64,000 bases of DNA, taken from assembly GCA_963751455.1 (NCBI GenBank), contig CAVVUN010000009.1:352001-416000 (forward strand). The letters run 5' to 3'. A program made the translations under genes and the position numbers. The DNA is from Nitrospirota bacterium (GTDB lineage Bacteria > Nitrospirota > UBA9217). Under the pieces are notes generated by a model. It saw only the letters and a list, made by a program, of their open reading frames with translations, was not told the origin of the DNA and did not search any database. Below are positions 3,238 to 58,518 of this stretch, piece by piece. How positions within the stretch are numbered: the stretch's first letter is position 1; every line of letters starts with the position of its first letter.

Positions 3238-3337
3238 GGTTTGTCTGGTTTATCTGGTTTGTCTGGTTCAACTAAGCAAACCAAACAAACCAAAGAAACT
3301 AAAAACACCAAAGAAACTAAAGAAACGAAATAAACTA
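3238..3337. repeat. 9-nt-period inverted repeat element (GGTTTGTCT arm, then AAACCAAAC arm)
   Basis: GGTTTGTCT GGTTTATCT GGTTTGTCT followed by AAACCAAAC AAACCAAAG AAACTAAAA..., between hldA and rmlA. Confidence 0.9.
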
Positions 3338-4808: not shown

Positions 4809-4881
4809 CGTTTGTTTGGTTTGTTTAGTTTGTTTGGTTAACCAGATAAACTAAATGAACCAGATAAACCAGACAAACTGA
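4809..4881. repeat. 9-nt-period inverted repeat element
   Basis: GTTTGTTTGGTTTGTTTAGTTTGTTTGGTT then AACCAGATAAACTAAATGAACCAGATAAACCAGACAAAC, between rmlC and rmlD. Confidence 0.9.
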
Positions 4882-8224: not shown

Positions 8225-8400
8225 AGTTTATCAGTATGTCTGGTTTGTTTGATTAATTTGGTTTGTCTGGTTTGTCTAGTTTGTTTGGTTTGCCTGGCTC
8301 ATTTGATTCAAAACAAACTAAACAAACCAAAGAAACTAAAGAAACTTTAATCAACAAAACAACCCAAATAAACTAAAGAAACCAAATCAACTAAATCAAC
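8225..8400. repeat. 9-nt-period inverted repeat element (long)
   Basis: GGTTTGTCT-type units followed by AAACTAAAC/AAACCAAAG-type units, between ugd and uxs. Confidence 0.9.
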
Positions 8401-8415
8401 TTTTTGGAGTAATTC

Positions 8416-9345
8416 ATGCGGATTCTGGTCACCGGCGGAGCCGGTTTTCTCGGTTCACACTTATGCGAACGATTGTTGGACGCAGGACACGAAGTCCTCT
8501 GTATGGACAATTTTTACACGGGCAGGAAGAAGAACGTTGCGGGAATGTTGAACAATCCGGTTTTCGAACTGGTGCGGCACGATATCGTTCTCCCTGTTCT
8601 TCTCGAAGTGGACAAAATTTACCATCTGGCATGCCCGGCTTCGCCGATTCATTACCAGTACAATCCGGTAAAGACTATCAAGACAAACATTCTGGGTACG
8701 CTCAATATGCTCGGCAACGCAAAACGAGTAAAGGCTCGCATGCTCCTCGCTTCGACTTCGGAGGTGTACGGGGACCCATCCGTTCATCCCCAGAAGGAAA
8801 ATTACTGGGGCAACGTCAATCCGATCGGCATCCGAAGCTGCTATGACGAGGGGAAACGGGTGGCCGAGACCCTGATGATGGACTATCATCGTCAAAACGG
8901 AGTGGACGTCAAGATCGTCCGGATTTTTAACACGTACGGGCCCCGCATGCTGCAGAATGACGGCCGCGTAGTGAGCAACTTCATTGTCCAGGCGCTCAAA
9001 GGCAATGATATTACGGTATATGGTGATGGTTCCCAGACCCGATCCTTCTGCTATGTGGATGATCTGGTCGACGGAATGGTGCGTATGATGGATTGCGAAA
9101 ATTTCATCGGCCCGGTAAATCTCGGGAACCCTGAGGAATATACGATACTCGATTTCGCAAAAAAAATCATAGCAATGACCGGTTCAGGATCCAAAATCGT
9201 GCACAAGCCGCTTCCCTCTGACGATCCGACCCAGCGCCAGCCCGATATCTCCCTGGCCGGATCAAAGTTGAACTGGAAGCCGAAGGTGAGCGTGGATGAC
9301 GGCTTGAAGAGGACGATTGAATATTTCAGGAAAGAACTGTCATGA
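8416..9345 (+). CDS. uxs: UDP-glucuronate decarboxylase (UDP-xylose synthase)
   Basis: [32 protein letters not shown] and RSCYDEGKR motifs. Confidence 0.92.
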
Positions 9346-9463
9346 TCGTCCATCGGCTACGGCAACGAGGCCCGTATCGTTAAGCGTTAAGCGGATACGG
9401 ACTGCCCAACACGAACGCCGTAACCCAACCACGAAACGGGCATCGTAACCGTGACCTTTTAAC
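9345..9463 (+). repeat. Dispersed copy of the CCCGTATCGT...ACGGGCATCGTAACC family
   Basis: ACGAGGCCCGTATCGT ... CGAAACGGGCATCGTAACC..CCTTTTAA matches the cores of the 19.2-19.8 kb repeat unit. Confidence 0.8.
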
Positions 9464-9473
9464 TACTATTCAA

Positions 9474-10289
9474 ATGAACCGAAGCAACCAGATGAACCAG
9501 ACAAACATGACAAACCATAAAAACCAGACAATCATCGCCGTCATTCCTTCCCGCTACGGGTCAACCCGGTTCCCCGGCAAAGCACTCGCAATGATTGAGA
9601 AAAAACCGATGATCCAGTGGGTTTACGAGCGCACAAAGCGTTCTCGCCTCATTACGCGGGTAATCGTGGCCACGGATGATGAACGCATCCGTAAGGCGGT
9701 TTCCGCTTTTGGAGGAGAAGCAATGATGACGTCGGCCGGCCATGCAACCGGTACGGATAGAATCGCCGAAGTGGTCCGTAAGCTTGATTGCGATATTGTT
9801 GTAAATGTTCAGGGAGATGAACCGCTGATCCATCCGGAGATGATCGACGAAGCTGTGACTCCTCTTGTGGACGACCCCTCCATTCCCATGGGCACTGTTT
9901 GCAGAAAGATTGAACGCCGTGATGAAGCTTTTGACGCTAATGTCGTCAAGGTGGTCTTCGATCGAAACGGGTTTGCGTTGTATTTTTCGCGGGCTCCGAT
10001 CCCGTGGGATCGAGACAGCCGAACAGGGAAAATATGTTTAACTGATATGCCTCTTGCAGGCGATATGTATAAGCATATCGGCCTCTATGCGTATCAGAGA
10101 GATTTTCTTTTACAGTACGCGCGGATGCCGCAAACAGGGCTTGAAGCCGTTGAAAAGCTCGAACAGCTGCGGGCGCTCGAATCCGGACATCGCATTAAAG
10201 TGGTTGTAACGAGCCATGAATCCTTTGGTGTTGACATCCCGGACGATTTGAGTAAAATACTGCAACGCCTCAAAGAAAGAAGAGATTAG
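9474..10289 (+). CDS. kdsB: 3-deoxy-manno-octulosonate cytidylyltransferase
   Basis: [38 protein letters not shown] and LEQLRALE motifs; N-terminus encoded by 9-nt repeats, so the start is uncertain. Confidence 0.95.
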
Positions 10290-14035: not shown

Positions 14036-14578
14036 ATGGAAAAATATAAGACGTACGCTCATACGCTGCCTCATTTATATCGTGCTAATGCTAAATATTT
14101 TATAACTGCATCAACATACGAAAAAAAGAAGATTTTTGACAATGCTGCCAAAGAGAAATAGTTATCTTGTCTACTCAAAGCCTGTTTGAACCAGGGATGG
14201 GAGCTTGAAGATTGGGTCATTCTTGATAATCATTACCATATAATGGTAAACGGACCTGGCAATGAAATATTTCTTTCGAAGTTTATCGCTGAATACCATA
14301 AATTTACGGCTTTGTTTATGAAGAAAAATTATGCCGAGCTGGCAAAACTGCCAAAGGTTTTTAACAATTATTGGGATACGTGTATTACGTATGAAAGATC
14401 ATATTTTGCCAGGTTGAATTATCTATACAATAATCCTGTTAAACATGGATATGTACGGAAGGCACATGATTATGAATGGGGCAGTTTCTTTATCAGATAT
14501 AACGAAGATGAACTTTCTATAGATAAGCTGCTGAATCAGTTTCCTTGTGATACGGTTAACATAGAAGACGATTTTTAA
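14036..14578 (+). pseudogene. REP-associated (Y1/HUH) tyrosine transposase-like gene with an in-frame TAG at 14159-14161
   Basis: The ATG at 14036 is in frame with ORF 14186..14578; YFITASTY, WVILDNHYH (HUH) and YLYNNPVKHGYV..DYEWGS motifs; one premature stop. Confidence 0.8.
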
Positions 14579-16025: not shown

Positions 16026-16576
16026 AAATATTTAACGTACCGAATCTTTTGTCGATCAGCAGAATACTGTCCGTGCCGATATTTATCTCGCTGATGCTCG
16101 AGCCGAATCCCGTACGGGCGCTTCTTGCAGGAATTGTTTTTTCTCTGGCCTCCGCAACGGACTGGCTGGACGGATACCTGGCGCGAAAATGGGGGCAGGT
16201 CACCAAGATCGGCAAGCTGCTGGACCCGATCGCGGACAAAATCCTGATCATGTCCGCTTTGGTCATCCTCGTTGAAATCCGGTCCGATGTGGTCCATGCC
16301 TGGATAGCGATCATTATCATCGGCAGGGAATTTGCGGTCACCGGCCTCCGTGCGATCGCATCGAGCGAGGGAATCATAATCCCTGCTGAGACTGTAGGCA
16401 AATACAAGGTGGGAGCGCAGATTACCGCGGTGCTTTCGCTTCTTCTCGATTATTATCTGGATAAAGGCTGGGTAACGGACGTCGGAAGGGTCGCCCTCTG
16501 GGTGGCGATGATTCTTGCCGTTTACTCCGCCGTCCAGTATTTCAGATCGTACTGGAGTAAGTTAAATAACCGGTGA
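16022..16576 (+). CDS. pgsA: CDP-diacylglycerol--glycerol-3-phosphate 3-phosphatidyltransferase
   Basis: NVPNLLSISR, TDWLDGYLARK..QVT..GKLLDPIADK and REFAVTGLR motifs; TTG start at 16022. Confidence 0.93.
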   Translation: MKIFNVPNLLSISRILSVPIFISLMLEPNPVRALLAGIVFSLASATDWLDGYLARKWGQVTKIGKLLDPIADKILIMSALVILVEIRSDVVHAWIAIIIIGREFAVTGLRAIASSEGIIIPAETVGKYKVGAQITAVLSLLLDYYLDKGWVTDVGRVALWVAMILAVYSAVQYFRSYWSKLNNR

Positions 16577-16595
16577 TTTGCGAACCATAGAACTT

Positions 16596-16712
16596 GTTTA
16601 TTTAGTTTGTCTTGTTTGTCGGGTTTATCTGGTTTGAAACCAAAGAAACTAAACAAACCAAATGAACTAAACAAACCCAACAAACCAAACAAACGAAACA
16701 AACCAAATGAAC
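16596..16712. repeat. 9-nt-period inverted repeat element overlapping the plsY start
   Basis: GTTTATTTAGTTTGTCTTGTTTGTCGGGTTTATCTGGTTT then AAACCAAAGAAACTAAACAAACCAAATGAAC... Confidence 0.9.
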
Positions 16713-17306
16713 TTCTTCTATCAACCCCTTGCCGTCATCATTTCCTATCTTATCGGAAGCACTCCGTTCGGTGTCATTTTCACGAGATTCTTTTCGGATA
16801 TCGACGTCAGGACCGTGGGAAGCGGCAATATCGGAGCAACGAATGTCCTGCGGGCCGCAGGGAAAAAGGCGGCCATACTTACTTTACTCTCTGACTGTCT
16901 GAAAGGTGTGATTCCGGTTCTTGTGGTCAAGACCCTTTTACAGGATGATTGGACAACGGTTGCCTCTGGGGCGGCCGCTGTTTTGGGTCATAATTTCCCC
17001 ATTTATCTCAAGTTTAAAGGAGGGAAGGGCGTGGCAACAAGCTACGGAGTAGTCCTTGCCATAGTTCCCAAAATAGGCGTTATCTGTCTGGTCGCATGGC
17101 TGGCTGCCGCTCTTGTCTGGCGTTATTCGTCCCTGTCCGCGCTTGCTTCCTTCGCGCTCTTTCCGCTACTGACCTTCATCACTTTCCCTGAATCCAAGCC
17201 GCTCGGTCTTCTATCTCTCTTCGTATTCGGCATGATCTATTACCGGCACCGGGAAAACATCAAGCGACTTATCGCAGGGACGGAGCCGAAGATAGGAAAG
17301 AAATAA
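16707..17306 (+). CDS. plsY: Glycerol-3-phosphate acyltransferase
   Basis: SYLIGS.PFG, GSGNIGATNVLR, GHNFPIYLKFKGGKGVAT and RHRENIKRL motifs. Confidence 0.95.
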   Translation: MNFFYQPLAVIISYLIGSTPFGVIFTRFFSDIDVRTVGSGNIGATNVLRAAGKKAAILTLLSDCLKGVIPVLVVKTLLQDDWTTVASGAAAVLGHNFPIYLKFKGGKGVATSYGVVLAIVPKIGVICLVAWLAAALVWRYSSLSALASFALFPLLTFITFPESKPLGLLSLFVFGMIYYRHRENIKRLIAGTEPKIGKK

Positions 17307-17314
17307 CGGTTTAT

Positions 17315-17446
17315 AATCGCCATTTCGGTCCGACGGTAACGAAGCCCGTATCGTGGAACGTCAGACGGTAACGTAAAAGACCTCATATACGACAACCGTA
17401 ACCAAAAACCAAAAGGGGCATCGTAACCCTAACCTTTTAAACCCGG
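17315..17446 (+). repeat. Dispersed CCCGTATCGT family copy directly upstream of four-helix-bundle gene 1
   Basis: ACGAAGCCCGTATCGTGGAA ... GACCTCA...ACGACAACCGTAACCAAAAACCAAAAGGGGCATCGTAACC..CCTTTTAAACC. Confidence 0.88.
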
Positions 17447-17767
17447 CATACGTTCTCAAACTTGAGGGCAAAATGGTTGACACTAAAAAGCGCATAACGA
17501 GTTTTCGTGATTTAGAAGTTTACCAAAGCACGTATTCGATTTGTATAAAAGTAATGACTGAATTGCTGCCTAAATTGCCAGATATGGAAAAATACGATTT
17601 AAGAGACCAATTAAGCAGATCATCGAAAGCCATCCCCAGGCTAATCGCGGAAGGATATGGGAAACGGCATCAAAAAGCCGGGTTTCAAAAATATCTTGAT
17701 GATGCCATGGCAGAATGCAACGAAACCATGGTAGGTTTGGAAATGTGTCGCGATATTTATAAAAAAC

Positions 17768-19098
17768 CAGTAGTGTCCGGTTATCGTTTTTTTAATGTGC
17801 GATAACTCGCTGTCATTCAAAGATAAAAGAGACTGTATGCAACTTTTCGATTTGAACTTAATTTATCCAGAATCATCCTATAATCCACCTCATCTATGCA
17901 TGAGGAGGGACGAAGATGAATTCCGGAAAGACGGTTTTTGCTCAGCTGATCCAGCATCTACCACGGTACGAGTTCAACCAATGCGTCCTTCGTTATCACG
18001 GCAATCACAAAGTCAGAAGCTTTTCATGCATGGATCAGTTTCTCTGCATGGCATTTGCCCAGCTGACCTATCGCGAAAGCTTGCGCGATATTGTAACGTG
18101 TCTCAACTCCCATCGACCAAAGCTTTACCACATGGGCTTTCGAGGGAAGGTCGCCAAATCCACGTTGGCGGACGCCAACGAGCTTCGAGACTTCCGCATC
18201 TATCAGGACTTCGGCTATTTGCTCATCGACATCGCCAGCAAACTTTATCGGAACGAGGAGTTTGGCCTCGACCTGAAGCTCTCGGTCTTTGCGCTGGACT
18301 CAACGATCATCGATCTTTGCCTTTCCACGTTCCCTTGGGCGACGTTTCGGAAAAAGAAAGCAGCCGTCAAGATTCACACTTTGCTCAACGTGCAGGGATC
18401 GATTCCAACCTTTATTTTCGTGACTCCCGGCAGCGTTCACGATGTCAATATGATGGATACTGTCCCGTTCGAAGCCGAATCGGTCTATACAATGGATCGC
18501 GCTTACCTCGACTTCGAGCGACTTTACCAAATCGATCAACTGTCCGCGTTCTTCGTTATCAAGAGCAAAAGCAATACCCGGCTTCGTCGCGTCTACTCTG
18601 CTCCCGTGGACAAAGCCGACGGGGTGCAAGCCGATCAGACGGTTATGCTCATTGGCTACAAATCCCGCAAGGCTTATCCAGATCCATTTCGTCGGGTGCG
18701 CTATTACGACACCGAACGAAACAAACGCTTGGTGGTTCTTACGAACAATTTCCTTATCCCGGCCAAAACAGTCGCGGATATTTATCGCTCGCGTTGGCAG
18801 GTAGAGCTGTTCTTCAAGTGGATCAAGCAACACTTGCGGATCAAGTCGTTCTTCGGGACATCTCCGAATGCGGTCAAGATCCAAATCTGGATTGCCGTAA
18901 GCGTTTATCTCCTCGTGGCGATTGTCAAGAAGAGATTGAATCTGCCCGGCAGCCTCCACACAATTCTACAGATTTTGGAGGTCAACCTTTTTGAGAAAAT
19001 ACCGATTTCTCAACTGGTTGAAGACACTATCAATCACGAAAACGAATATCGCGACGATAACCAATTGAATCTATTTACGTAACAACCGGACACTACTG
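17768..19098 (+). mobile_element. IS4-family insertion sequence
   Basis: IRs CAGTAGTGTCCGGTT / AACCGGACACTACTG; 9-bp TSD ATAAAAAAC at 17759-17767 and 19099-19107. Confidence 0.95.
17916..19082 (+). CDS. IS4-family DDE transposase (DUF4372 N-terminus)
   Basis: MNSGKTVFAQL, FAQLTYRESLRDI, ALDSTII, MDRAY and Y..RWQVELFFKWIKQHL motifs. Confidence 0.95.
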   Translation: MNSGKTVFAQLIQHLPRYEFNQCVLRYHGNHKVRSFSCMDQFLCMAFAQLTYRESLRDIVTCLNSHRPKLYHMGFRGKVAKSTLADANELRDFRIYQDFGYLLIDIASKLYRNEEFGLDLKLSVFALDSTIIDLCLSTFPWATFRKKKAAVKIHTLLNVQGSIPTFIFVTPGSVHDVNMMDTVPFEAESVYTMDRAYLDFERLYQIDQLSAFFVIKSKSNTRLRRVYSAPVDKADGVQADQTVMLIGYKSRKAYPDPFRRVRYYDTERNKRLVVLTNNFLIPAKTVADIYRSRWQVELFFKWIKQHLRIKSFFGTSPNAVKIQIWIAVSVYLLVAIVKKRLNLPGSLHTILQILEVNLFEKIPISQLVEDTINHENEYRDDNQLNLFT

Positions 19099-19212
19099 AT
19101 AAAAAACATATAATAGGCTTCCCAATCGATGAAACGATAGATCTCTACGACAAGGCAGGCAGACAAATATATAATCTTGCCAAAGCGTGGTCGCAGTTTA
19201 AGCGCGAAACCA

Positions 19213-19843
19213 GTAACCAAAAACCGAAACCGGCATCGTAACCTTTCAAACCGGTCATCGTCTGTTGGTGACGAAACCCGTATCGTGGAAAGCGACCTCA
19301 AACACGACAACCGTAACCAAAAACCGAAACGGGCATCGTAACCTTTTAAACCGGTCATCGTCTGTTGGTGACGAAACCCGTATCGTGGAAAGCGACCTCA
19401 AACACGACAACCGTAACCGAAAACCGAAACGGGCATCGTAACCTTTTAAACCGGTCATCGTCTGTTGGTGACGAAACCCGTATCGTGGAAAGCGACCTCA
19501 AACACGACAACCGTAACCAAAAAAACCGAAACGGGCATCGTAACCTTTTAAACCGGTCATCGTCTGTTGGTGACGAAACCCGTATCGTGGAAAGCGACCT
19601 CAAACACGACAACCCTAACCAAAAACCAAAACAGGCATCGTAACCTTTTAAACCGGTCATCGTCTGTTGGTGACGAAACCCGTATCGTGGAAAGCGACCT
19701 CAAACACGACAACCGTAACCAAAAAAACCGAAACGGGCATCGTAACCTTTTAAACCGGTCATCGTCTGTTGGTGACGAAACCCGTATCGTGGAAAGCGAC
19801 CTCAAACACGACAACCCTAACCAAAAACCAAAACAGGCATCGT
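19213..19843 (+). repeat. Tandem array of 100/102-bp units (6 full and 1 partial)
   Basis: Units start at 19213, 19313, 19413, 19513, 19615, 19715 and 19817; near-identical with no unique spacers. Confidence 0.97.
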
Positions 19844-20110
19844 TGTACGGGACAAGGAACCGCGGGTTGAATCCGAAATTATCGATATCTTTGTAGATGA
19901 AGAGATGGAAAGCGCTGGAAAGCGGAACATCATTCACTCCGGTCATAAAAGATATCAGGGCTTTCGAATTGGAAGAGAAATTTCACACCCCGTTTTACGA
20001 AAACATCTCCAAGGAAGGGGTGCCGCTATGACCCTGGAACCAAAGGACAAAAGATCACTGTTTGGTGATATCGAAGAACAGCATGGTTACTCTTGAAGAC
20101 GCAAAAGACG
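19839..20110 (+). pseudogene. Remnant of a nucleotidyltransferase (MNT)-HEPN pair
   Basis: IVVRDKEPRVESEIIDIFVDEEMES(GTS)FTPVIKD..TPFYENISKEGVPL*, with a ~10-bp duplication at 19906-19924 shifting the frame; ATGA-coupled MTLEPKDKRSL..LEDAK follows. Confidence 0.65.
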
Positions 20111-20250
20111 TTTCAAAACACAAATCTTATCTTAAGATTATCTGACCTGCTTTTACCAGTCGCTAAGAACTATGAACCCGAACTTCTGGGAAGGGTTGCC
20201 CTGCAATTCGGCAAACCGGACCGACCGGCCAAACGGGGCAGATTCGATAG

Positions 20251-20286
20251 ATTATCCTTGCTAAAAGGATAATACTATGATAAATT
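20251..20286 (+). promoter_or_regulatory. Putative sigma70 promoter with an overlapping palindromic operator
   Basis: TTGCTA-17bp-TAAATT with TGn extension; inverted repeat ATTATCCTT...AAGGATAAT spans the -35 box. Confidence 0.45.
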
Positions 20287-20293
20287 GTCCGCC

Positions 20294-21616
20294 ATGGAAG
20301 GACAATTTCGCGGGATCATCCGTCAGAAAATCATAGACTCATTGGCGGAGTCCGTGCCGGAATTCACGCGCCGGGACGTACGGCTGCCTGCGGTAAAAGG
20401 GAAGGCAACGGCGGTAATCGGCATGCGCCGCACAGGCAAATCCACCTTCCTCTGGCAGGTGCTGGCAGACCGGTTGGCGCGGGGCACAGGCCGGGAGGGG
20501 CTGCTTTTCTTCAGATTCGAGGACGAGCGCCTGGCCGGCATGACCGCCGCCGACCTCCACCTGATCGTTGAGGAATACTACCGTTTGCACCCGGAATGGA
20601 GAGACAGTCGGCGGGCCGTTTTCTTTCTGGACGAGATACAGGTGGTTCCAGGGTGGGAATCCTTTGCACGCCGTCTCCTTGACACGGAAAAGGTGGATCT
20701 GTTTCTCTCCGGCTCGTCGGCGCGTCTCCTCTCACGAGAAGTGACCACGAGCATGCGCGGCCGGGCCATGGAAGCATTGGTTCATCCCTTCAGCTTCCGC
20801 GAATATCTACGGCATTTCGGTCGCGAACCAAAGCTGGGGCCGGAGCGTCTCCCCAAAGCCGCACGTTCCGCCTTGGAGAAGGATTTACGGGAGTATCTGG
20901 CAGGCGGCGGTTTTCCCGAAGCCTTGGGCGTTGCCGCACGGGACCGCTTCGAGCTTTTACGCGGGTATGTGGATACGGCGCTCCTCAGGGATGTCATAGA
21001 GCGTTACTCGGTATCGCATCCTACGGCGCTCCGCTGGATGGTACGGCAGCTTCTCGGAAGCGCCGCCGGTGCGTTCAGCGTGAATAAGTTCCACGGTGAT
21101 CTCCGGTCACAGGGGGTCCATGTTGCCAAGGACACACTGCACGCTTATCTGAGCTATTTGGAAGATGCGTTTCTGATCCGCTCGGTTTTTCTCGCGTCCG
21201 CCTCGGAACGGCGCCGGATGGTGAACCCCCGCAAGGTGTACCCTATAGACCCGGGGTTGATCCCGGTCTTCGACCGGTCGGGGAAGGCAAATCTGGGCCA
21301 CGCCCTGGAAACCTGCGTGCTGTTGGATCTCGAACGGCGGGGGGCCGAGATTTCCTATGTTCGCACCGAAAGCGGGTTTGAGGTCGATTTTCTTGCCCGT
21401 TATCCCGATGGAAAAGAGGAACTGATTCAGGTATGCGCCGATCTGGATGTTCCCAATGTTCGGGAACGCGAAGCGCGCGCCCTTACGGAAGCTGCACGCG
21501 AACATCGCAGAGCGACTTTGCACATTGTCAGCCTCGATCCGGTAATCGCGCCCGATATTTCCAGAAATGTCACGCTTCATTCGGCAGCCGCATGGCTGTT
21601 GATGGAAAAACATTAA
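20294..21616 (+). CDS. AAA+ ATPase (AAA_14 plus DUF4143)
   Basis: GMRRTGKS Walker A, FFLDEIQ, SGSS, YL..GGFPE, KVY.IDPG and EVDF motifs. Confidence 0.88.
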   Translation: MEGQFRGIIRQKIIDSLAESVPEFTRRDVRLPAVKGKATAVIGMRRTGKSTFLWQVLADRLARGTGREGLLFFRFEDERLAGMTAADLHLIVEEYYRLHPEWRDSRRAVFFLDEIQVVPGWESFARRLLDTEKVDLFLSGSSARLLSREVTTSMRGRAMEALVHPFSFREYLRHFGREPKLGPERLPKAARSALEKDLREYLAGGGFPEALGVAARDRFELLRGYVDTALLRDVIERYSVSHPTALRWMVRQLLGSAAGAFSVNKFHGDLRSQGVHVAKDTLHAYLSYLEDAFLIRSVFLASASERRRMVNPRKVYPIDPGLIPVFDRSGKANLGHALETCVLLDLERRGAEISYVRTESGFEVDFLARYPDGKEELIQVCADLDVPNVREREARALTEAAREHRRATLHIVSLDPVIAPDISRNVTLHSAAAWLLMEKH

Positions 21617-24543: not shown

Positions 24544-24645
24544 CAAACCAAACAAACCAGAGAAACCAAATTAACCAAACAAACTCTTACGGTTTCCAAA
24601 CCAAACAAACCAAATAAACCAAACAAACCGGATAAGCCGGAACTG
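24544..24645 (+). repeat. 9-nt repeat tract (A/C-rich arm only) upstream of four-helix-bundle gene 2
   Basis: AAACCAAAC AAACCAGAG AAACCAAAT TAACCAAAC ... AAACCGGAT. Confidence 0.9.
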
Positions 24646-24647
24646 AT

Positions 24648-25076
24648 ATGAAAATAACCCGATTTGAAGAGATGGAATGCTGGAAAGAGTCAAGAAAATT
24701 AGTAGACATGATATACAAAGCCATTCAGTCAAATAAATCATTTCAGTCAGATTATCGGTTAAAAGATCAGAGTATCGGCGCTGCTGTATCAGTAATGGGA
24801 AACATCCCGGAGGGATTTGTACGACGTTCGAATAAAGAATTTATACAGTTTCTATTTATCTCGATGTCCTCTGCCGCCGAATTACAGTCTCACCTGTATG
24901 TCGCACTTGATCAGCACTATATCTCTCAGGACACCTTCTCAACAATCTATCAACAAGCTGTGAAAACATCCAAAATAGTATCCGGCCTCATTACATATTT
25001 ACGTAACAATGTCAGCGGTTCCAAACGGATTTCTAATAAACCAAACAAACCAGACAAACTAAATAAACCGGAATAA
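24648..25076 (+). CDS. Four-helix-bundle protein 2 (23S rRNA-IVP/TIGR02436-like), intact
   Basis: ITRFEEMECWK, DYRLKDQ..GAAVSVMGNIPEGF.R.SNKEFIQFL.IS.SSAAELQSHLYVALDQ.YI motifs; C-terminal NKPNKPDKLNKPE is encoded by the 9-nt repeat. Confidence 0.92.
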   Translation: MKITRFEEMECWKESRKLVDMIYKAIQSNKSFQSDYRLKDQSIGAAVSVMGNIPEGFVRRSNKEFIQFLFISMSSAAELQSHLYVALDQHYISQDTFSTIYQQAVKTSKIVSGLITYLRNNVSGSKRISNKPNKPDKLNKPE

Positions 25077-25199
25077 CCAAAATATCAAACAAACAAAACA
25101 AACCAAATAATCCAGAGCAACCAAACAAACCAAATAAACCAGAGAAACTAGATGAACCAAACAAACCAGAAAAACGAAACAAACCAAACAAACCAGAAA
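25036..25199 (+). repeat. 9-nt repeat tract spanning the FHB2 stop and the wzi start
   Basis: Long run of AAACCAAAC/AAACCAGAN-type units. Confidence 0.92.
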
Positions 25200-53152: not shown

Positions 53153-53989
53153 TTGCTCAAATTCCTCATCACATCCGTTCTCATAATCCTTCCCTCCATT
53201 GCAGCCGCCGAAGACCTCGAGATAATCAACCGGCCGGTCAATTCATCCGGATTTACCGGTCTCTTGTTTACAACCGCTCCGTACACGGTCCCGGATCACA
53301 CAGTAGAAGTAGCCAGCGCCGTCCTGTCTGAAAACAGCACTGTTCCGGATTACATCGTCACGGAAGTTCCAATGCTAAGCATAACTGCGGGAGTGTCGCC
53401 AGACCTGGAGATAGCCATAAAAGGGTCCTATTTCCGCAAAACACTGGATGGGGGGAGCAATAAAGAACGCGGGGCAGGGGACACGCATATATCGTGCAAG
53501 TGGAATTTCCTGCCTCATAAGGAATATTCTTCAAACCCTTCCCTTGCCTTGCTAATTACCGGAATAGCCCCTACCGCTGATGAAAAGCTTGGACTGAGCA
53601 GTATTGTTCACTGGGGGGCAAAAACAGGCCTTTCTGTGGGCACAGAGATGGACTGGGGAGAGCATATCGTCGGCATCTATGCTGATGGTCAGGTCGTCTT
53701 TCACGATCTCTCTGATAAGCGCTACCGGGACCGGTACGGCGAGGTTAACGCGGGCTTGCTGCTTCCTATAAGCAAACACCGGAATCTCCAGATGCTTATC
53801 GAATACAACCTGGTGTCGGGAATTGACAAAATATCGGCCCTCGGCGGTGATTATTCCGGGCTTACCTATGGCTTGAGGCTCGTTGGCGAGAGGTTTAATT
53901 TGTCGTTTGGAACGCAATTTCTGCATAAGAAGGAACCCGGTTTCGAAAAAGCAAACCGCGTAATAGGAATGGCCAGCATTAAGCTTTAA
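53153..53989 (+). CDS. Exported beta-rich (probable outer-membrane) hypothetical protein
   Basis: Signal peptide, GFTGLL..APYT, GAGD and alternating beta-strand pattern; start uncertain. Confidence 0.55.
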   Translation: MLKFLITSVLIILPSIAAAEDLEIINRPVNSSGFTGLLFTTAPYTVPDHTVEVASAVLSENSTVPDYIVTEVPMLSITAGVSPDLEIAIKGSYFRKTLDGGSNKERGAGDTHISCKWNFLPHKEYSSNPSLALLITGIAPTADEKLGLSSIVHWGAKTGLSVGTEMDWGEHIVGIYADGQVVFHDLSDKRYRDRYGEVNAGLLLPISKHRNLQMLIEYNLVSGIDKISALGGDYSGLTYGLRLVGERFNLSFGTQFLHKKEPGFEKANRVIGMASIKL

Positions 53990-54714: not shown

Positions 54715-54970
54715 ATCGTCGAAGTTATCGTTGTTCGTCTCACGCATCGAGTCCCGTATCGAATAGATTCAGCGATGAGCACGAACCACGTGACCATAAA
54801 CCGAAACGGGCGTCAGAACCCTAGCCGGTTTACCACTTGACCATCCTTGAAACGGTAGTTCGTCTAAGGGAACGAAGCCCGTATCGTGGACCGTAAAAGC
54901 GGTTTACGGTTAAAGCCGAACAACGACCAACCGATCGCCGAAACGGGCATCCCAACCTTAACCTTTTTAA
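54715..54970 (+). repeat. Two diverged copies of the CCCGTATCG...CCGAAACGGG family
   Basis: GTCCCGTATCGAA...CCGAAACGGGCGTC and ACGAAGCCCGTATCGTGGA...CCGAAACGGGCATCCCAACC..CCTTTTTAA. Confidence 0.78.
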
Positions 54971-55156
54971 TCTCAATTAATCAGCCTACAAAAGAGACGG
55001 CATCACGGATGCCTCGATCCAAACAAACCAAACAAACAATGACTTAAACCTACAAATCTAACCTTAAACTTTATCTTTCCCATTGTCCGATAATGTATAT
55101 TATGTCAAATCATAATCCAATAAGCAAAAACACTTTAATTCACAATACTCCCTTCT

Positions 55157-56044: not shown

Positions 56045-56135
56045 TGGTTTGTTTGGTTTGTTTGGTTTGTTTGGTTTGTTTGGTTTGTTTGGTTTTGGTT
56101 TCTGTAACCAAATAAACCCGACAAACCAAACAAAC
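56045..56135. repeat. 9-nt-period inverted repeat element between lon and lipA
   Basis: (GGTTTGTTT)x5 then AACCAAATAAACCCGACAAACCAAACAAAC. Confidence 0.92.
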
Positions 56136-56139
56136 TTGA

Positions 56140-58518
56140 TCAGCTGCTCTTTTTCCCGTCAAGCGCCGCGGTGATCACCTGGTCGATCGTGTCCACAAAA
56201 ACGAAATTCATTTCTTTGCGTAAATCCGCCGGAACATCGTCCAGGTCGTTTTTGTTCTTTTCAGGAAGGATCACCGTCTTGATGCCGGCGCGTCTCGCTG
56301 CCAGCACTTTTTCCTTTACGCCCCCGATCGGCATAACTTTGCCGCGCAGCGTTATCTCCCCGGTCATCGCGACGTCATGTTTCGCCACCTTTCCGGTAAT
56401 CATGGATACGATAGCGGTGGTCATCGTAACGCCTGCCGACGGCCCGTCCTTCGGTATCGCTCCTGCCGGAACATGGATATGTATGTCGGTCTTGTCAAAG
56501 AAGTCCTTGTTGATGCCGAGCTCCTGCGCCTGAGACCTGACGTAGCTCAGGGCTGCCTGGGCGGATTCCTTCATGACATCCCCGAGCTGGCCGGTCAGGG
56601 TCAGCTGTTTGTTGCCGGGCATCATGGAGGCCTCGATGAACAGGATGTCCCCTCCCGTGGGCGTCCACGCAAGCCCCGTAACAACACCGGGACGATCGAT
56701 CCGGACCGCGGTTTCCGCGAAGAACCGGGGATTTCCCAGGTAGTCGTGCAGACTCTCGATCTTGATGGTTATCGGGACCGGTTTCCCTTCCGCAACGGCC
56801 TTGGCCACCTTGCGGCATACATTTGCGATTTCGCGTTCAAGATTACGAACCCCTGCCTCTCGCGTATAGTCCTTGATGATGCCTTGCAGCGCATCGTCCT
56901 CTATCACGATCTCATCCGGTTTCAGCGCGTTTGCCTGGATCTCCTTCGGGATAAGGTATTTTTTCGCTATATTCAGTTTTTCGTGCTCGGTGTACCCCGG
57001 CAAATGGAGCACTTCCATGCGGTCGAGCAGCGGCGGCGGAATCGTATCGAGCTGGTTTGCGGTGGTAATAAACATGACGCTCGAAAGATCGAAAGACACA
57101 TCGAGATAATTATCGCGAAAGTCCTTGTTTTGCTCGGGATCGAGCACCTCAAGGAGCGCGGAAGAAGGATCGCCGCGCCAGTCCGCGCCCACTTTATCGA
57201 CCTCGTCGAGCATGATTACCGGGTCTTTCGTCTCGATGCGCTTGATGACCTGGATGATCCGGCCGGGCATCGCCCCTATATACGTGCGGCGATGGCCCCG
57301 GATCTCAGCCTCGTCATGCAATCCGCCAAGCGACAGGCGCATGAATTTCCTGTCCAGTGCCCGGGCAATGGACTGGCCGAGCGATGTCTTTCCCACTCCT
57401 GGAGGCCCCACAAAGCAGAGAATCGGCTCCCGCATGCGTGACTTATCTTTGGTCTCCCTCTCCTGCCCCAGCTTTTTTACAGCCAGATATTCAAGGATCC
57501 TGTCTTTTACTTTCTCGAGATCATAATGGTCCTCGTCAAGTATGATCCTCGCCTTCCCGATATCAATCGGAGACGCCGATGTCTTGTTCCACGGCAGCGT
57601 CGTCATCCATTCCAGATAGGTGCGGATGACTGAGTATTCCGGGGATGAAGCCGAAAGTTTTTCCATGCGGCCGAGCTCCCGCTTTGACTCCTTCTCGGCT
57701 TCCGGAGGCATTTTTGCCGATTCAATTTTTTCCCGCAGGTTCTTCAGTTCCGAGCCCTCGTCGGTTTCTTCGCCCAGCTCTTTCCGTATTGCCGAAAGCT
57801 GCTGACGGAGCAGGTACTCGCGTTCCGCCTTCTGCATCTGGTCCCTGGCCTGTCCCTGGATCTTTCGGCCGAGTTCGAGCACTTCGACCTCGCGGTTCAA
57901 ATAATGTATGATTTTGTTCAGTTTATTGAAGACCGATTCCGTCTCAAGGATCTCCTGGCGCTGCGGCAGTTCCATCCGGATATTCGTTGCTATGAGGTAT
58001 GCCAGCTGGAGCGGCTCCTCGATGTTCACTGCAGCTGAAGACAGCTCTTCAGGCATGTTTGGCGTGAGCGAAACCATCTTCTGAAAGACTTCCGATACGC
58101 CGCGCATGAGCGCTTCGAGCTGCACGGATTTTTCAATTTTGTCGGGCATGGGTTTTATCCGTGCCCTGATGTAAGGCTCAACCTGCGGGAAGTGCTCGAT
58201 GCTGATCCGCTCGATGCCCTGCACGAGCACGCGCAGCGTCCCGTCGGGCACTTTCACCATCTGGAGGATGCGGGCCATCGTGCCGATTGGATAAATATCG
58301 GACACCCCGGACACTTCAATGTCCGTTTTTCGCTGCGCGGTGAGGGCCAGGATTTTGTCGCCCACGGTAACGTCGTTGATAAGCTTGATCGATTTTTCTT
58401 TCCCAATCACGAGCGGGTAGACCGTCAGCGGGTAAACAACCGTGTCCTTCAGCGGCAGCAAAGGAAGCTCAGCCGGTACGACCGGTATTTTTTCTGTCTC
58501 TGTTTCTGGACTTTCCAT
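56140..58518 (-). CDS. lon: ATP-dependent Lon protease
   Basis: LPLLPL, GPPGVGKTS, GHRRTYIGAMPG, PKDGPSAG and IGGVKEK motifs; AGGAG RBS supports the ATG at 58518. Confidence 0.97.
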   Translation of the reverse strand: MESPETETEKIPVVPAELPLLPLKDTVVYPLTVYPLVIGKEKSIKLINDVTVGDKILALTAQRKTDIEVSGVSDIYPIGTMARILQMVKVPDGTLRVLVQGIERISIEHFPQVEPYIRARIKPMPDKIEKSVQLEALMRGVSEVFQKMVSLTPNMPEELSSAAVNIEEPLQLAYLIATNIRMELPQRQEILETESVFNKLNKIIHYLNREVEVLELGRKIQGQARDQMQKAEREYLLRQQLSAIRKELGEETDEGSELKNLREKIESAKMPPEAEKESKRELGRMEKLSASSPEYSVIRTYLEWMTTLPWNKTSASPIDIGKARIILDEDHYDLEKVKDRILEYLAVKKLGQERETKDKSRMREPILCFVGPPGVGKTSLGQSIARALDRKFMRLSLGGLHDEAEIRGHRRTYIGAMPGRIIQVIKRIETKDPVIMLDEVDKVGADWRGDPSSALLEVLDPEQNKDFRDNYLDVSFDLSSVMFITTANQLDTIPPPLLDRMEVLHLPGYTEHEKLNIAKKYLIPKEIQANALKPDEIVIEDDALQGIIKDYTREAGVRNLEREIANVCRKVAKAVAEGKPVPITIKIESLHDYLGNPRFFAETAVRIDRPGVVTGLAWTPTGGDILFIEASMMPGNKQLTLTGQLGDVMKESAQAALSYVRSQAQELGINKDFFDKTDIHIHVPAGAIPKDGPSAGVTMTTAIVSMITGKVAKHDVAMTGEITLRGKVMPIGGVKEKVLAARRAGIKTVILPEKNKNDLDDVPADLRKEMNFVFVDTIDQVITAALDGKKSS

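What the first reader, a model, noticed from the sequence alone, without database searches (positions are those of the whole stretch)
19213..19843. 100/102-bp tandem array beginning inside the FHB1 3' end, with a higher-order duplication
There are six full units and one partial unit. Variants alternate in the last copies (A7 plus GAAACGGG, then CCTAACC plus CAAAACAGG), showing a 202-bp dimer was re-duplicated. Each unit has a 6-nt rhythm (CGTAAC, CGAAAC, CGTATC, CACGAC) and complementary CCCGT/ACGGG cores. The array is a recent amplification of an element otherwise present as diverged copies. It could produce a multi-unit structured RNA or a binding-site sponge. It lies next to the IS that inactivated the putative cognate protein.
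Basis: partly seen in the sequence, partly recalled or inferred. Interest (0 to 1): 0.7.

Follow-up and report, generated by a model that had tools for sequence, protein, structure and literature searches.

The report
Tandem-amplified hairpin from four-helix-bundle cassette
This 630-base repeat is a real run of six near-identical copies of a small gene-less DNA element that copies the ends of a widespread 'four-helix-bundle' gene cassette; the run is likely a neutral local copying slip, while the element family keeps three fixed mismatches in its stem that are predicted to form a binding site for the cassette's protein.

Summary
The array is real: 19208-19843, 6.3 copies, with an exact 202-bp re-duplication. 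Its unit belongs to a family of ~100-130-bp inverted-arm elements found at 27 other loci in this genome. The same arms bracket one clade of PF05635 four-helix-bundle (FHB) genes at 100 of 126 loci across phyla, and the loops match the gene's 3' tail, so the elements look like gene-less cassette derivatives.

The array most likely arose by slippage between the FHB 3' arm and the neighbouring element. It sits in decayed DNA (IS4-split gene, deletion junction), it duplicated damaged units, and a relative grew a similar array in place from one element. An assembly artefact is unlikely; no read or RNA data cover it. The '6-nt rhythm' is a 5/7 spacing.

The most interesting result concerns the family: three stem positions avoid Watson-Crick pairing in 84 independent elements (6 vs 17, 3 vs 16, 3 vs 9 expected). 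That fits a single-strand hairpin read through flipped-out bases, as in the related DGR protein Avd.

The scan reported FHB cassettes and empty copies on other DNA many times before; my paper searches found no description in print.

The parts
17307..17447 (+). Upstream gene-less element (5' arm 17335-17353, 3' arm 17410-17428), starting right after the plsY stop; its 3' half is the closest relative of the array's 3' half
   Evidence: (alignment score 92 against 60 for the next family member)
17473..17767 (+). FHB1, 5' part (PF05635 23S_rRNA_IVP, TIGR02436)
   Evidence: (E 8e-18)
17768..19098 (+). IS4-family element, 1331 bp, transposase 17916-19082, 9-bp target duplication at 17759-17767 and 19099-19107; 100% identical copy on C1, interrupted copy on C11
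19099..19241 (+). FHB1, 3' part; the frame is open for 142 codons when the IS and one duplication are left out
19200..19252 (+). Cassette 3' half overlapping the FHB1 stop (3' arm 19225-19243); direct repeat of each unit's 3' half and inferred seed of the expansion
19253..19352 (+). Unit 1 (100 bp; arms 19267-19285 and 19325-19343)
19353..19452 (+). Unit 2 (100 bp; one A>G change before the 3' arm)
19453..19654 (+). Units 3 (102 bp, longer A run) and 4 (100 bp, three substitutions, two of them breaking stem pairs): first copy of the 202-bp dimer
19655..19843 (+). Units 5 and 6, exact copy of units 3-4; unit 6 is cut inside its 3' arm
19839..20031 (+). 5'-truncated, frameshifted nucleotidyltransferase (PF01909/PF18765) remnant joined to the array by a deletion junction
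   Evidence: (95% identity to P0001)
9340..9472 (+). Dispersed family member in the gap before kdsB-like gene 9474-10289
54720..54979 (+). Two diverged family members head to tail

Best explanation
The array is a run of six near-identical copies of a gene-less element that shares its arms and tail with a four-helix-bundle (PF05635) gene cassette, and it likely grew in place, without selection, by slippage or unequal recombination between two direct copies of the element's 3' half. Shown: the unit has the two inverted arms of the FHB1 clade and a loop matching the gene's 3' tail; the gene's end and the first unit carry the same 3' half 100 bp apart; a 202-bp dimer was later duplicated again; the right end is a deletion junction. 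Inferred: the starting layout was element - FHB gene - 3' arm - element, as in the closest relatives, and several rounds of misalignment produced the array. Inferred for the family: the arms pair as a single-stranded hairpin with three programmed 1x1 mismatches. This is predicted to be the site bound by the FHB pentamer (about 0.5 on its own), as Avd binds a stem through flipped-out bases. How single elements reach new sites is not shown.
For: Family: 28 merged loci in G000 including the array. Arms flank the FHB1 clade at 53 of 76 genome loci with strict windows and at 100 of 126 non-redundant loci within 600 bp, against 0 of 18 other-clade FHB loci. Loops of 76 of 84 independent gene-less elements match a profile built only from cassette tails; 7 of 84 match on the other strand. 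Closest relatives L184 and L190 have the layout 5'3'[FHB]3'5'3'3', and 39 of 126 loci have three or more arms. One orthologous junction in another genus shows no element (G009, G023), one element (G134), element plus extra arm (G172) and a 96%-identical 120-bp array (G123). All five unit changes lie in about 21 of 100 bp; three can be read as copying from the adjacent 7-bp micro-repeat or A-run slippage (inference). Damaged unit 4 was duplicated with intact unit 3. Surrounding DNA is decayed. None of 19 dispersed G000 elements has a loop at least 85% identical to another, so the array is not part of a recent dispersal burst. Mismatch avoidance in 84 elements from 14 genome handles, shuffled within genome: position 4, 6 vs 17.4; position 9, 3 vs 15.7 (both p<0.0002); position 16, 3 vs 8.6 (p 0.007). 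It was first seen in 25 G000 elements. Avd contacts an 11-bp stem through flipped-out bases (10.1101/2023.10.23.563531, passages). The clade's model matches 2GSC and 2RLD best.
Against: Head-to-tail pairs were found in only 2 of 64 family genomes, both among the 4 that carry the gene, against 0 of 16 element-bearing genomes without it (Fisher p 0.03). Three of the four are one genus and short-read assemblies lose arrays, but this hints at gene-dependent rather than purely passive growth. The 5' 60 bp of all six units are invariant, which selection could also explain. In 61 simple gene-bearing cassettes only position 9 avoids pairing (12 vs 21.4, p 0.005); positions 4 and 16 do not. Elements within a genome are related by descent, so the shuffle test overstates significance. 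Folding is modest (median z -0.87, 9 of 25 below -2). Sense orientation is only a bias (12 of 15; 32 of 49; crude ORF calls). Foldseek E-values to 2GSC are only about 1e-3, and to the DGR chains 0.28-0.66. No binding, read or expression data.
Confidence: 0.68

Rival explanations
1. The array is a product of the element's own copying route (repeated insertion of new copies into an existing arm, or a circular or rolling intermediate) acting while FHB1 was intact.
For: Extra arms or elements pile up beside 39 of 126 cassettes, including stacks on both sides in L105 and six 66-bp 3'-arm repeats in L193. Tandem pairs occur only in gene-bearing genomes (2 of 4 vs 0 of 16). The four gene-bearing genomes have the highest pattern counts: 32, 28, 22 (6 of them array units) and 17, against 15 or fewer.
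Against: One-step rolling copying would give identical units, not a nested dimer with interspersed changes. FHB has no recognisable catalytic domain. Three of the recent dispersed copies in G134 sit inside another small carrier element, and at one junction G123 has a different hairpin between the same carrier ends, so that dispersal need not involve FHB. In 150 other genomes of the phylum, 9 of 11 element-bearing ones lacked the gene at the cut-off used.
Confidence: 0.17
2. The array is a selected multi-unit RNA or decoy that titrates FHB or another protein.
For: All units keep the three family mismatches. The 5' halves are invariant. Two sigma-70-like sites lie just upstream, one spanning the IS end (3 found, 3.8 expected by chance). 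Ordered REPIN clusters were suggested to have functions (PMC3116915, passages).
Against: The only gene of the cognate clade in the genome is IS-split. Units have extra mismatches and weak folding. No Rfam match over the array. The locus is absent at the plsY junction of the other 29 genomes examined; one of them (G020) has a single element there. Flanks are pseudogene remnants.
Confidence: 0.08
3. The copy number is an assembly or polishing artefact.
For: No public run covers the array, so it could not be checked against reads. The A-run length variant is the kind of error long reads make.
Against: The assembly holds 99-100% identical 1.3-1.9-kb repeats inside large contigs, so it resolves repeats far longer than the 210-bp longest exact repeat here. 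The A-run variant alternates in register with three substitutions. An independent genome has a comparable array.
Confidence: 0.04
4. The adjacent IS4 caused the amplification.
For: The IS ends about 110 bp before the array and is recent (100% identical copy elsewhere).
Against: The other two IS copies have no array or arms within 1.5 kb. The G123 array lies away from its cassette, and no IS was seen in the 0.9 kb read around it.
Confidence: 0.03

Closest known systems
REPIN/RAYT systems and their ordered tandem clusters (Bertels and Rainey 2011, PMC3116915; passages read)
   Same: Two inverted arms with a spacer, dispersed between genes, a cluster beside one cognate gene, and tandem runs of nearly identical units (up to four REPINs, over 700 bp, in SBW25).
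   Different: The cognate gene here is a PF05635 four-helix bundle, not a Y1 transposase; no element lies within 2.9 kb of any of 33 Y1_Tnp hits. The arms are not small self-folding GTAG/CGTC-tagged palindromes (PMC3733652, passages). The gene lies between the arms and its 3' tail survives in the loop.
ORF-bearing 23S rRNA intervening sequences (Coxiella S23p, PMC4990558, passages; CPR rRNA inserts, 10.1101/2024.02.27.582315, passages)
   Same: PF05635 ORF in the loop of a stem formed by terminal inverted repeats; ORF-containing and ORF-less forms coexist; short repeat copy number varies between strains.
   Different: Here the cassette sits between protein-coding genes (co-oriented with both neighbours in 35 of 40). 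The stem is broken by mismatches every 5-7 bp instead of a nearly perfect 28-bp helix. RNase III cleavage is untested.
DGR accessory protein Avd and its Sp stem-loop (10.1101/2023.10.23.563531, passages)
   Same: Related four-helix fold (weak Foldseek rows to short chains of the DGR complexes, taken to be Avd from their length); Avd is a pentamer that binds a stem with flipped-out bases.
   Different: No reverse transcriptase or template/variable repeat was seen beside FHB1 (most window ORFs judged from their translations only). Binding is not shown here.
Intergenic heptamer repeats of Xanthomonas and Nostoc (PMC4692102, passages)
   Same: Intergenic repeats, often paired in inverted orientation.
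   Different: Those are simple 7-mer runs; this family has a fixed 19-bp arm with 5/7 spacing. The term 'four helix' does not occur in that paper's main text.

Membership tests
ORF-bearing 23S rRNA intervening sequence | Lies inside an rRNA gene | tested here: not met
   Follows plsY, in protein-coding context; no rRNA match in 16500-20500
ORF-bearing 23S rRNA intervening sequence | PF05635/S23p ORF | tested here: met
ORF-bearing 23S rRNA intervening sequence | Complementary ends enclosing the ORF | tested here: met
   100 of 126 loci; arms covary at positions 3, 5, 6, 8, 12, 13, 18 in 61 simple cassettes
ORF-bearing 23S rRNA intervening sequence | Excised by RNase III | not testable with these tools
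   needs RNA data or an assay
REPIN/RAYT | Two inverted repeats with a spacer, dispersed between genes | tested here: met
REPIN/RAYT | Cluster flanking a RAYT (Y1) transposase | tested here: not met
   nearest of 33 Y1_Tnp hits is 2.9 kb from an element; the flanked gene is PF05635
REPIN/RAYT | Each arm is a short tagged (GTAG/CGTC) self-palindrome | tested here: not met
   arm consensus is not self-complementary and has no such tag; compared with passages of PMC3733652, figures not seen
MITE (non-autonomous transposon derivative) | Internal-deletion derivative of a gene-bearing element | tested here: met
   loops of 76 of 84 match the cassette tail
MITE (non-autonomous transposon derivative) | Cognate transposase | tested here: not met
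   FHB1 matches only four-helix-bundle families
MITE (non-autonomous transposon derivative) | Target-site duplication | tested here: inconclusive
   four empty/filled comparisons: a possible 4-bp duplication belongs to a different carrier element; none clear for the bare element
CRISPR array | Unique spacers between constant repeats | tested here: not met
   units are near-identical over their whole length; no Rfam CRISPR match
Type III toxin-antitoxin RNA array | Short tandem repeats of a known antitoxin RNA before a toxin gene (feature recalled, not from a call) | tested here: not met
   no Rfam match; downstream are a nucleotidyltransferase remnant and AAA_14/DUF4143 genes
Integron attC array | RYYYAAC and GTTRRRY core sites (motifs recalled) | tested here: not met
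   0 of either on both strands of 19201-19850

The most novel reading that the evidence does not exclude
PF05635 four-helix-bundle genes head a class of REPIN-like mobile systems with no transposase. The Avd-like pentamer reads a single-stranded hairpin through programmed mismatches and helps copy it, perhaps with a host or borrowed enzyme, seeding gene-less hairpins between genes across phyla. Tandem arrays like this one are the footprint of that copying next to a once-active gene.
Probability: 0.2. Interest if true: 0.8.

Novelty: new variant of a known kind. Interest (0 to 1): 0.42.

Why it matters
The array by itself is probably strain-level noise of the kind known from REPIN clusters. The family matters more. 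PF05635 proteins have solved structures and no known function. This clade comes with a sharply defined 19-bp arm and three positions that avoid pairing, which gives a precise ligand and precise control mutants for a first binding experiment, and a test of whether the mismatches protect operon mRNA from RNase III. It also gives a concrete route by which gene-less repeats fill and turn over at gene junctions.

Tried and rejected
Reads: 20 of 24 listed runs held a small share of the stretch and none held half. In the four laid, depth was almost all on the IS, with only traces over the array, so they give no test of copy number; no RNA holder listed. Rfam: nothing over the array. A strict element pattern found 0 matches in viral contigs. 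No same-genus relative was available. ORFs read through the array match no Pfam family at cut-off (one tested) and are taken as repeat artefacts. RNAalifold on 25 G000 elements gave almost no covariation (1 of 12 pairs); pairing support comes from mismatch avoidance and from gene-bearing cassettes. Promoter and terminator scans were at chance level. Orthologous-site conservation was rejected: 1 of 42 alignable junctions (from 57 elements) holds this family in G000, and many hold other hairpin types. Recent dispersal as proof of FHB activity was rejected because of the carrier element. CRISPR, type III antitoxin and attC readings fail their tests. Rows left out: 3 of 79 edge loci; duplicates and edge loci (126 of 159 kept); 5 of 89 loci without an arm pair; 1 of 20 G000 loci. 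The 89 loci were chosen among the best model hits, not at random. Paper searches listed nothing linking PF05635 genes to dispersed hairpins; the library lacks most subscription papers, and no supplements or figures were seen.

Full report
Observation. TRF reports 19208-19843 with period 100 (6.3 copies, 95%) and period 202 (3.1 copies, 97%). Units are 100,100,102,100,102,100 bp, and units 3-4 are repeated exactly as units 5-6, a 210-bp exact repeat at offset 202. Phased on the underlying element, the array is one 3' half overlapping the end of the FHB gene, five whole units from 19253, and a sixth cut at 19843. The first 60 bp of all six units are identical, and all five changes fall in about 21 bp before and inside the 3' arm. 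The rhythm is a 5/7 spacing, not 6. An artefact is unlikely: the 15-contig assembly carries 99-100% identical 1.3-1.9-kb repeats inside contigs. No public run covers the array, so reads could not confirm it.

Surroundings. Upstream are plsY (16707-17306), a full diverged copy of the element (17307-17447) and FHB1 (PF05635, TIGR02436). FHB1 is split by a 1331-bp IS4 with a 9-bp target duplication; leaving out the IS and one duplication gives 142 open codons, so the gene was intact until recently. Downstream, unit 6 joins the middle of a frameshifted nucleotidyltransferase gene (95% identical to P0001 over the stretch searched), which marks a deletion junction. In several relatives plsY directly abuts or overlaps the gene that lies at 53153 here. 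The cassette therefore forms the left edge of a ~36-kb island with lower GC and, judged from translations, polysaccharide genes.

The unit is a family member. Iterated nhmmer finds 28 merged loci in G000 including the array, nearly all filling gaps between genes. Each has two inverted copies of a 19-bp arm about 50-75 bp apart. A covariance model finds the family in 13 of 40 relatives and in 5 of 5 genomes chosen for carrying the gene. Sites turn over: of 57 relatives' elements, 42 had an alignable junction in G000 and 1 held this family; many held other hairpin types. Orientation follows transcription only as a bias (12 of 15; 32 of 49).

The family belongs to one FHB clade. Close FHB1 relatives come from records titled Nitrospirota, Patescibacteria, Bacteroidetes, Omnitrophota, WOR-3, Marinimicrobia, Deltaproteobacteria and others. 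A profile built from G000's gene-less elements finds a 5' arm upstream and a 3' arm at the stop in 53 of 76 genome loci, against 31 of 2314 control windows and 0 of 18 other-clade FHB loci; those loci carry different repeats. Pooled and de-replicated, 100 of 126 loci have both arms and 39 have three or more. The loops of 76 of 84 independent gene-less elements match the last codons of the cassette, which makes them likely internal-deletion derivatives. In the 64 family genomes the gene is found in 4, and these have the highest element counts. Three of them are one genus, and many genomes have elements without the gene.

How the array arose. The closest FHB1 relatives L184 and L190 show element - gene - 3' arm - element - extra arm. 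That layout puts two direct copies of the 3' half about 100 bp apart, a ready substrate for slippage or unequal crossing-over (inference). The nested dimer implies more than one round. Damaged unit 4, with two extra broken pairs, was duplicated with intact unit 3. An independent series supports growth in place: at one junction in genus g10, G009 and G023 have no element, G134 has one, G172 has one plus an extra arm, and G123 has a 96%-identical 120-bp array broken by an assembly gap. Smaller or older stacks flank 4 of 79 and 3 of 80 FHB loci by TRF; none reaches six near-identical full units, so G000 is the extreme case of a recurrent pattern. The other two IS copies have no array. G000's dispersed elements have no near-identical siblings (0 of 19). 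Against pure neutrality: head-to-tail pairs occur in 2 of 4 gene-bearing and 0 of 16 gene-less element-bearing genomes, a weak and confounded signal.

What the element likely is. In 25 G000 elements the arms pair less than shuffled partners (71.7% vs 73.7%), with deficits at arm positions 3-4, 9 and 16. I retested these on 84 elements from 14 other genome handles, shuffling within genomes. Watson-Crick pairs numbered 6 vs 17.4 expected at position 4, 3 vs 15.7 at position 9 and 3 vs 8.6 at position 16; position 3 did not replicate (50 vs 54.5), and the variable positions 20-23 were near expectation. Many different mismatch types occur at positions 4 and 9. Two independent double-stranded binding sites would not produce this pattern; it implies the arms meet in a single strand and the mismatches are kept. 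Shared descent inflates the significance. In 61 simple gene-bearing cassettes the arms covary at seven positions but avoid pairing only at position 9. Folding energy is modest. All array units tested keep the three mismatches and add one or three more. A model of a homolog 86% identical to the window's 5' part (pLDDT 91.5) matches 2GSC and 2RLD best and DGR complex chains weakly. The Avd pentamer binds an 11-bp stem through flipped-out bases (10.1101/2023.10.23.563531, passages). I therefore infer that the hairpin is the FHB pentamer's ligand. Avoidance of RNase III in operon mRNA is the main alternative reason for the mismatches. How single elements move is open. The recent near-identical copies in G134 are not evidence for FHB activity, because 3 of 10 sit inside another small element that also carries other hairpins.

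Comparison and novelty. The system works like REPIN/RAYT, where tandem runs of nearly identical units and clusters beside the cognate gene are described (PMC3116915, passages). It is built like ORF-bearing rRNA intervening sequences (PMC4990558; 10.1101/2024.02.27.582315; passages). It fails the membership tests of both. Seven paper searches (listings and abstract starts) showed no link between PF05635 genes and dispersed hairpins; subscription papers, figures and supplements were not seen. The scan's own notes report FHB cassettes and empty copies in many other genomes, none with this unit sequence or in this genome. What this locus adds is the in-place array series and the position-specific mismatch test.

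Verdict. The array is real and probably neutral (0.68). The family is a new variant of a known kind with a testable ligand hypothesis. Interest 0.42 overall; the array alone would merit about 0.2.

Noticed in passing
window 24544-25195: A second, intact PF05635 gene (24648-25076) flanked by 9-mer arrays; gene-less 9-mer hairpins of the same type at 3238-3337, 4810-4878, 8237-8401, 16607-16707 and near 56045-56140.
   Followed up: partly
window 17307-53150: A ~36-kb lower-GC island (AAA_14/DUF4143 genes, apparent toxin-antitoxin pairs and polysaccharide genes, another IS-like pair) separates plsY from the gene that abuts it in several relatives; the FHB1 cassette is its left edge.
   Followed up: partly
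G000, 47 matches, e.g. C1:567224, C9:76235, C15:158342-158832; L304, L310, L312: A second small element with asymmetric ends and a shared TTAG at its borders carries different hairpins as cargo; in G134 it carries this finding's hairpin. Its mobilising enzyme was not sought.
   Followed up: partly
L325:541-1080 (G123:C1): Near-identical 120-bp tandem array of the same family, with an assembly gap, away from that genome's intact FHB cassette.
   Followed up: yes
L146:640-1910 and L193:2521-2915: Stacks of about three elements on each side of an FHB cassette (L146/L105), and six 66-bp repeats of the 3' arm alone (L193).
   Followed up: partly
G000:C2:320592-321028: Another PF05635 gene is interrupted by a different hairpin element.
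   Followed up: no
G000:C14:28102-28320, C15:1354290-1354540, C15:1572029-1572367: Three 58-59-bp tandem arrays (3.8-5.9 copies, 95-99%) of what looks like one other repeat family.
   Followed up: no
G000:C2:513643-513764 and L030: One junction holds a gene-less hairpin in G000, this finding's element in G004, and apparently an FHB cassette with that other hairpin type in G008: junctions are reused by different families.
   Followed up: partly
window 14087-14578: Broken Y1_Tnp (RAYT-like) gene between the kdsD-like and kdsC-like genes, with no arms of this family beside it.
   Followed up: partly
window 19087-19114: A sigma-70-like site whose -35 comes from the IS end (10 of 12 matches); the regional count is at chance level.
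   Followed up: no
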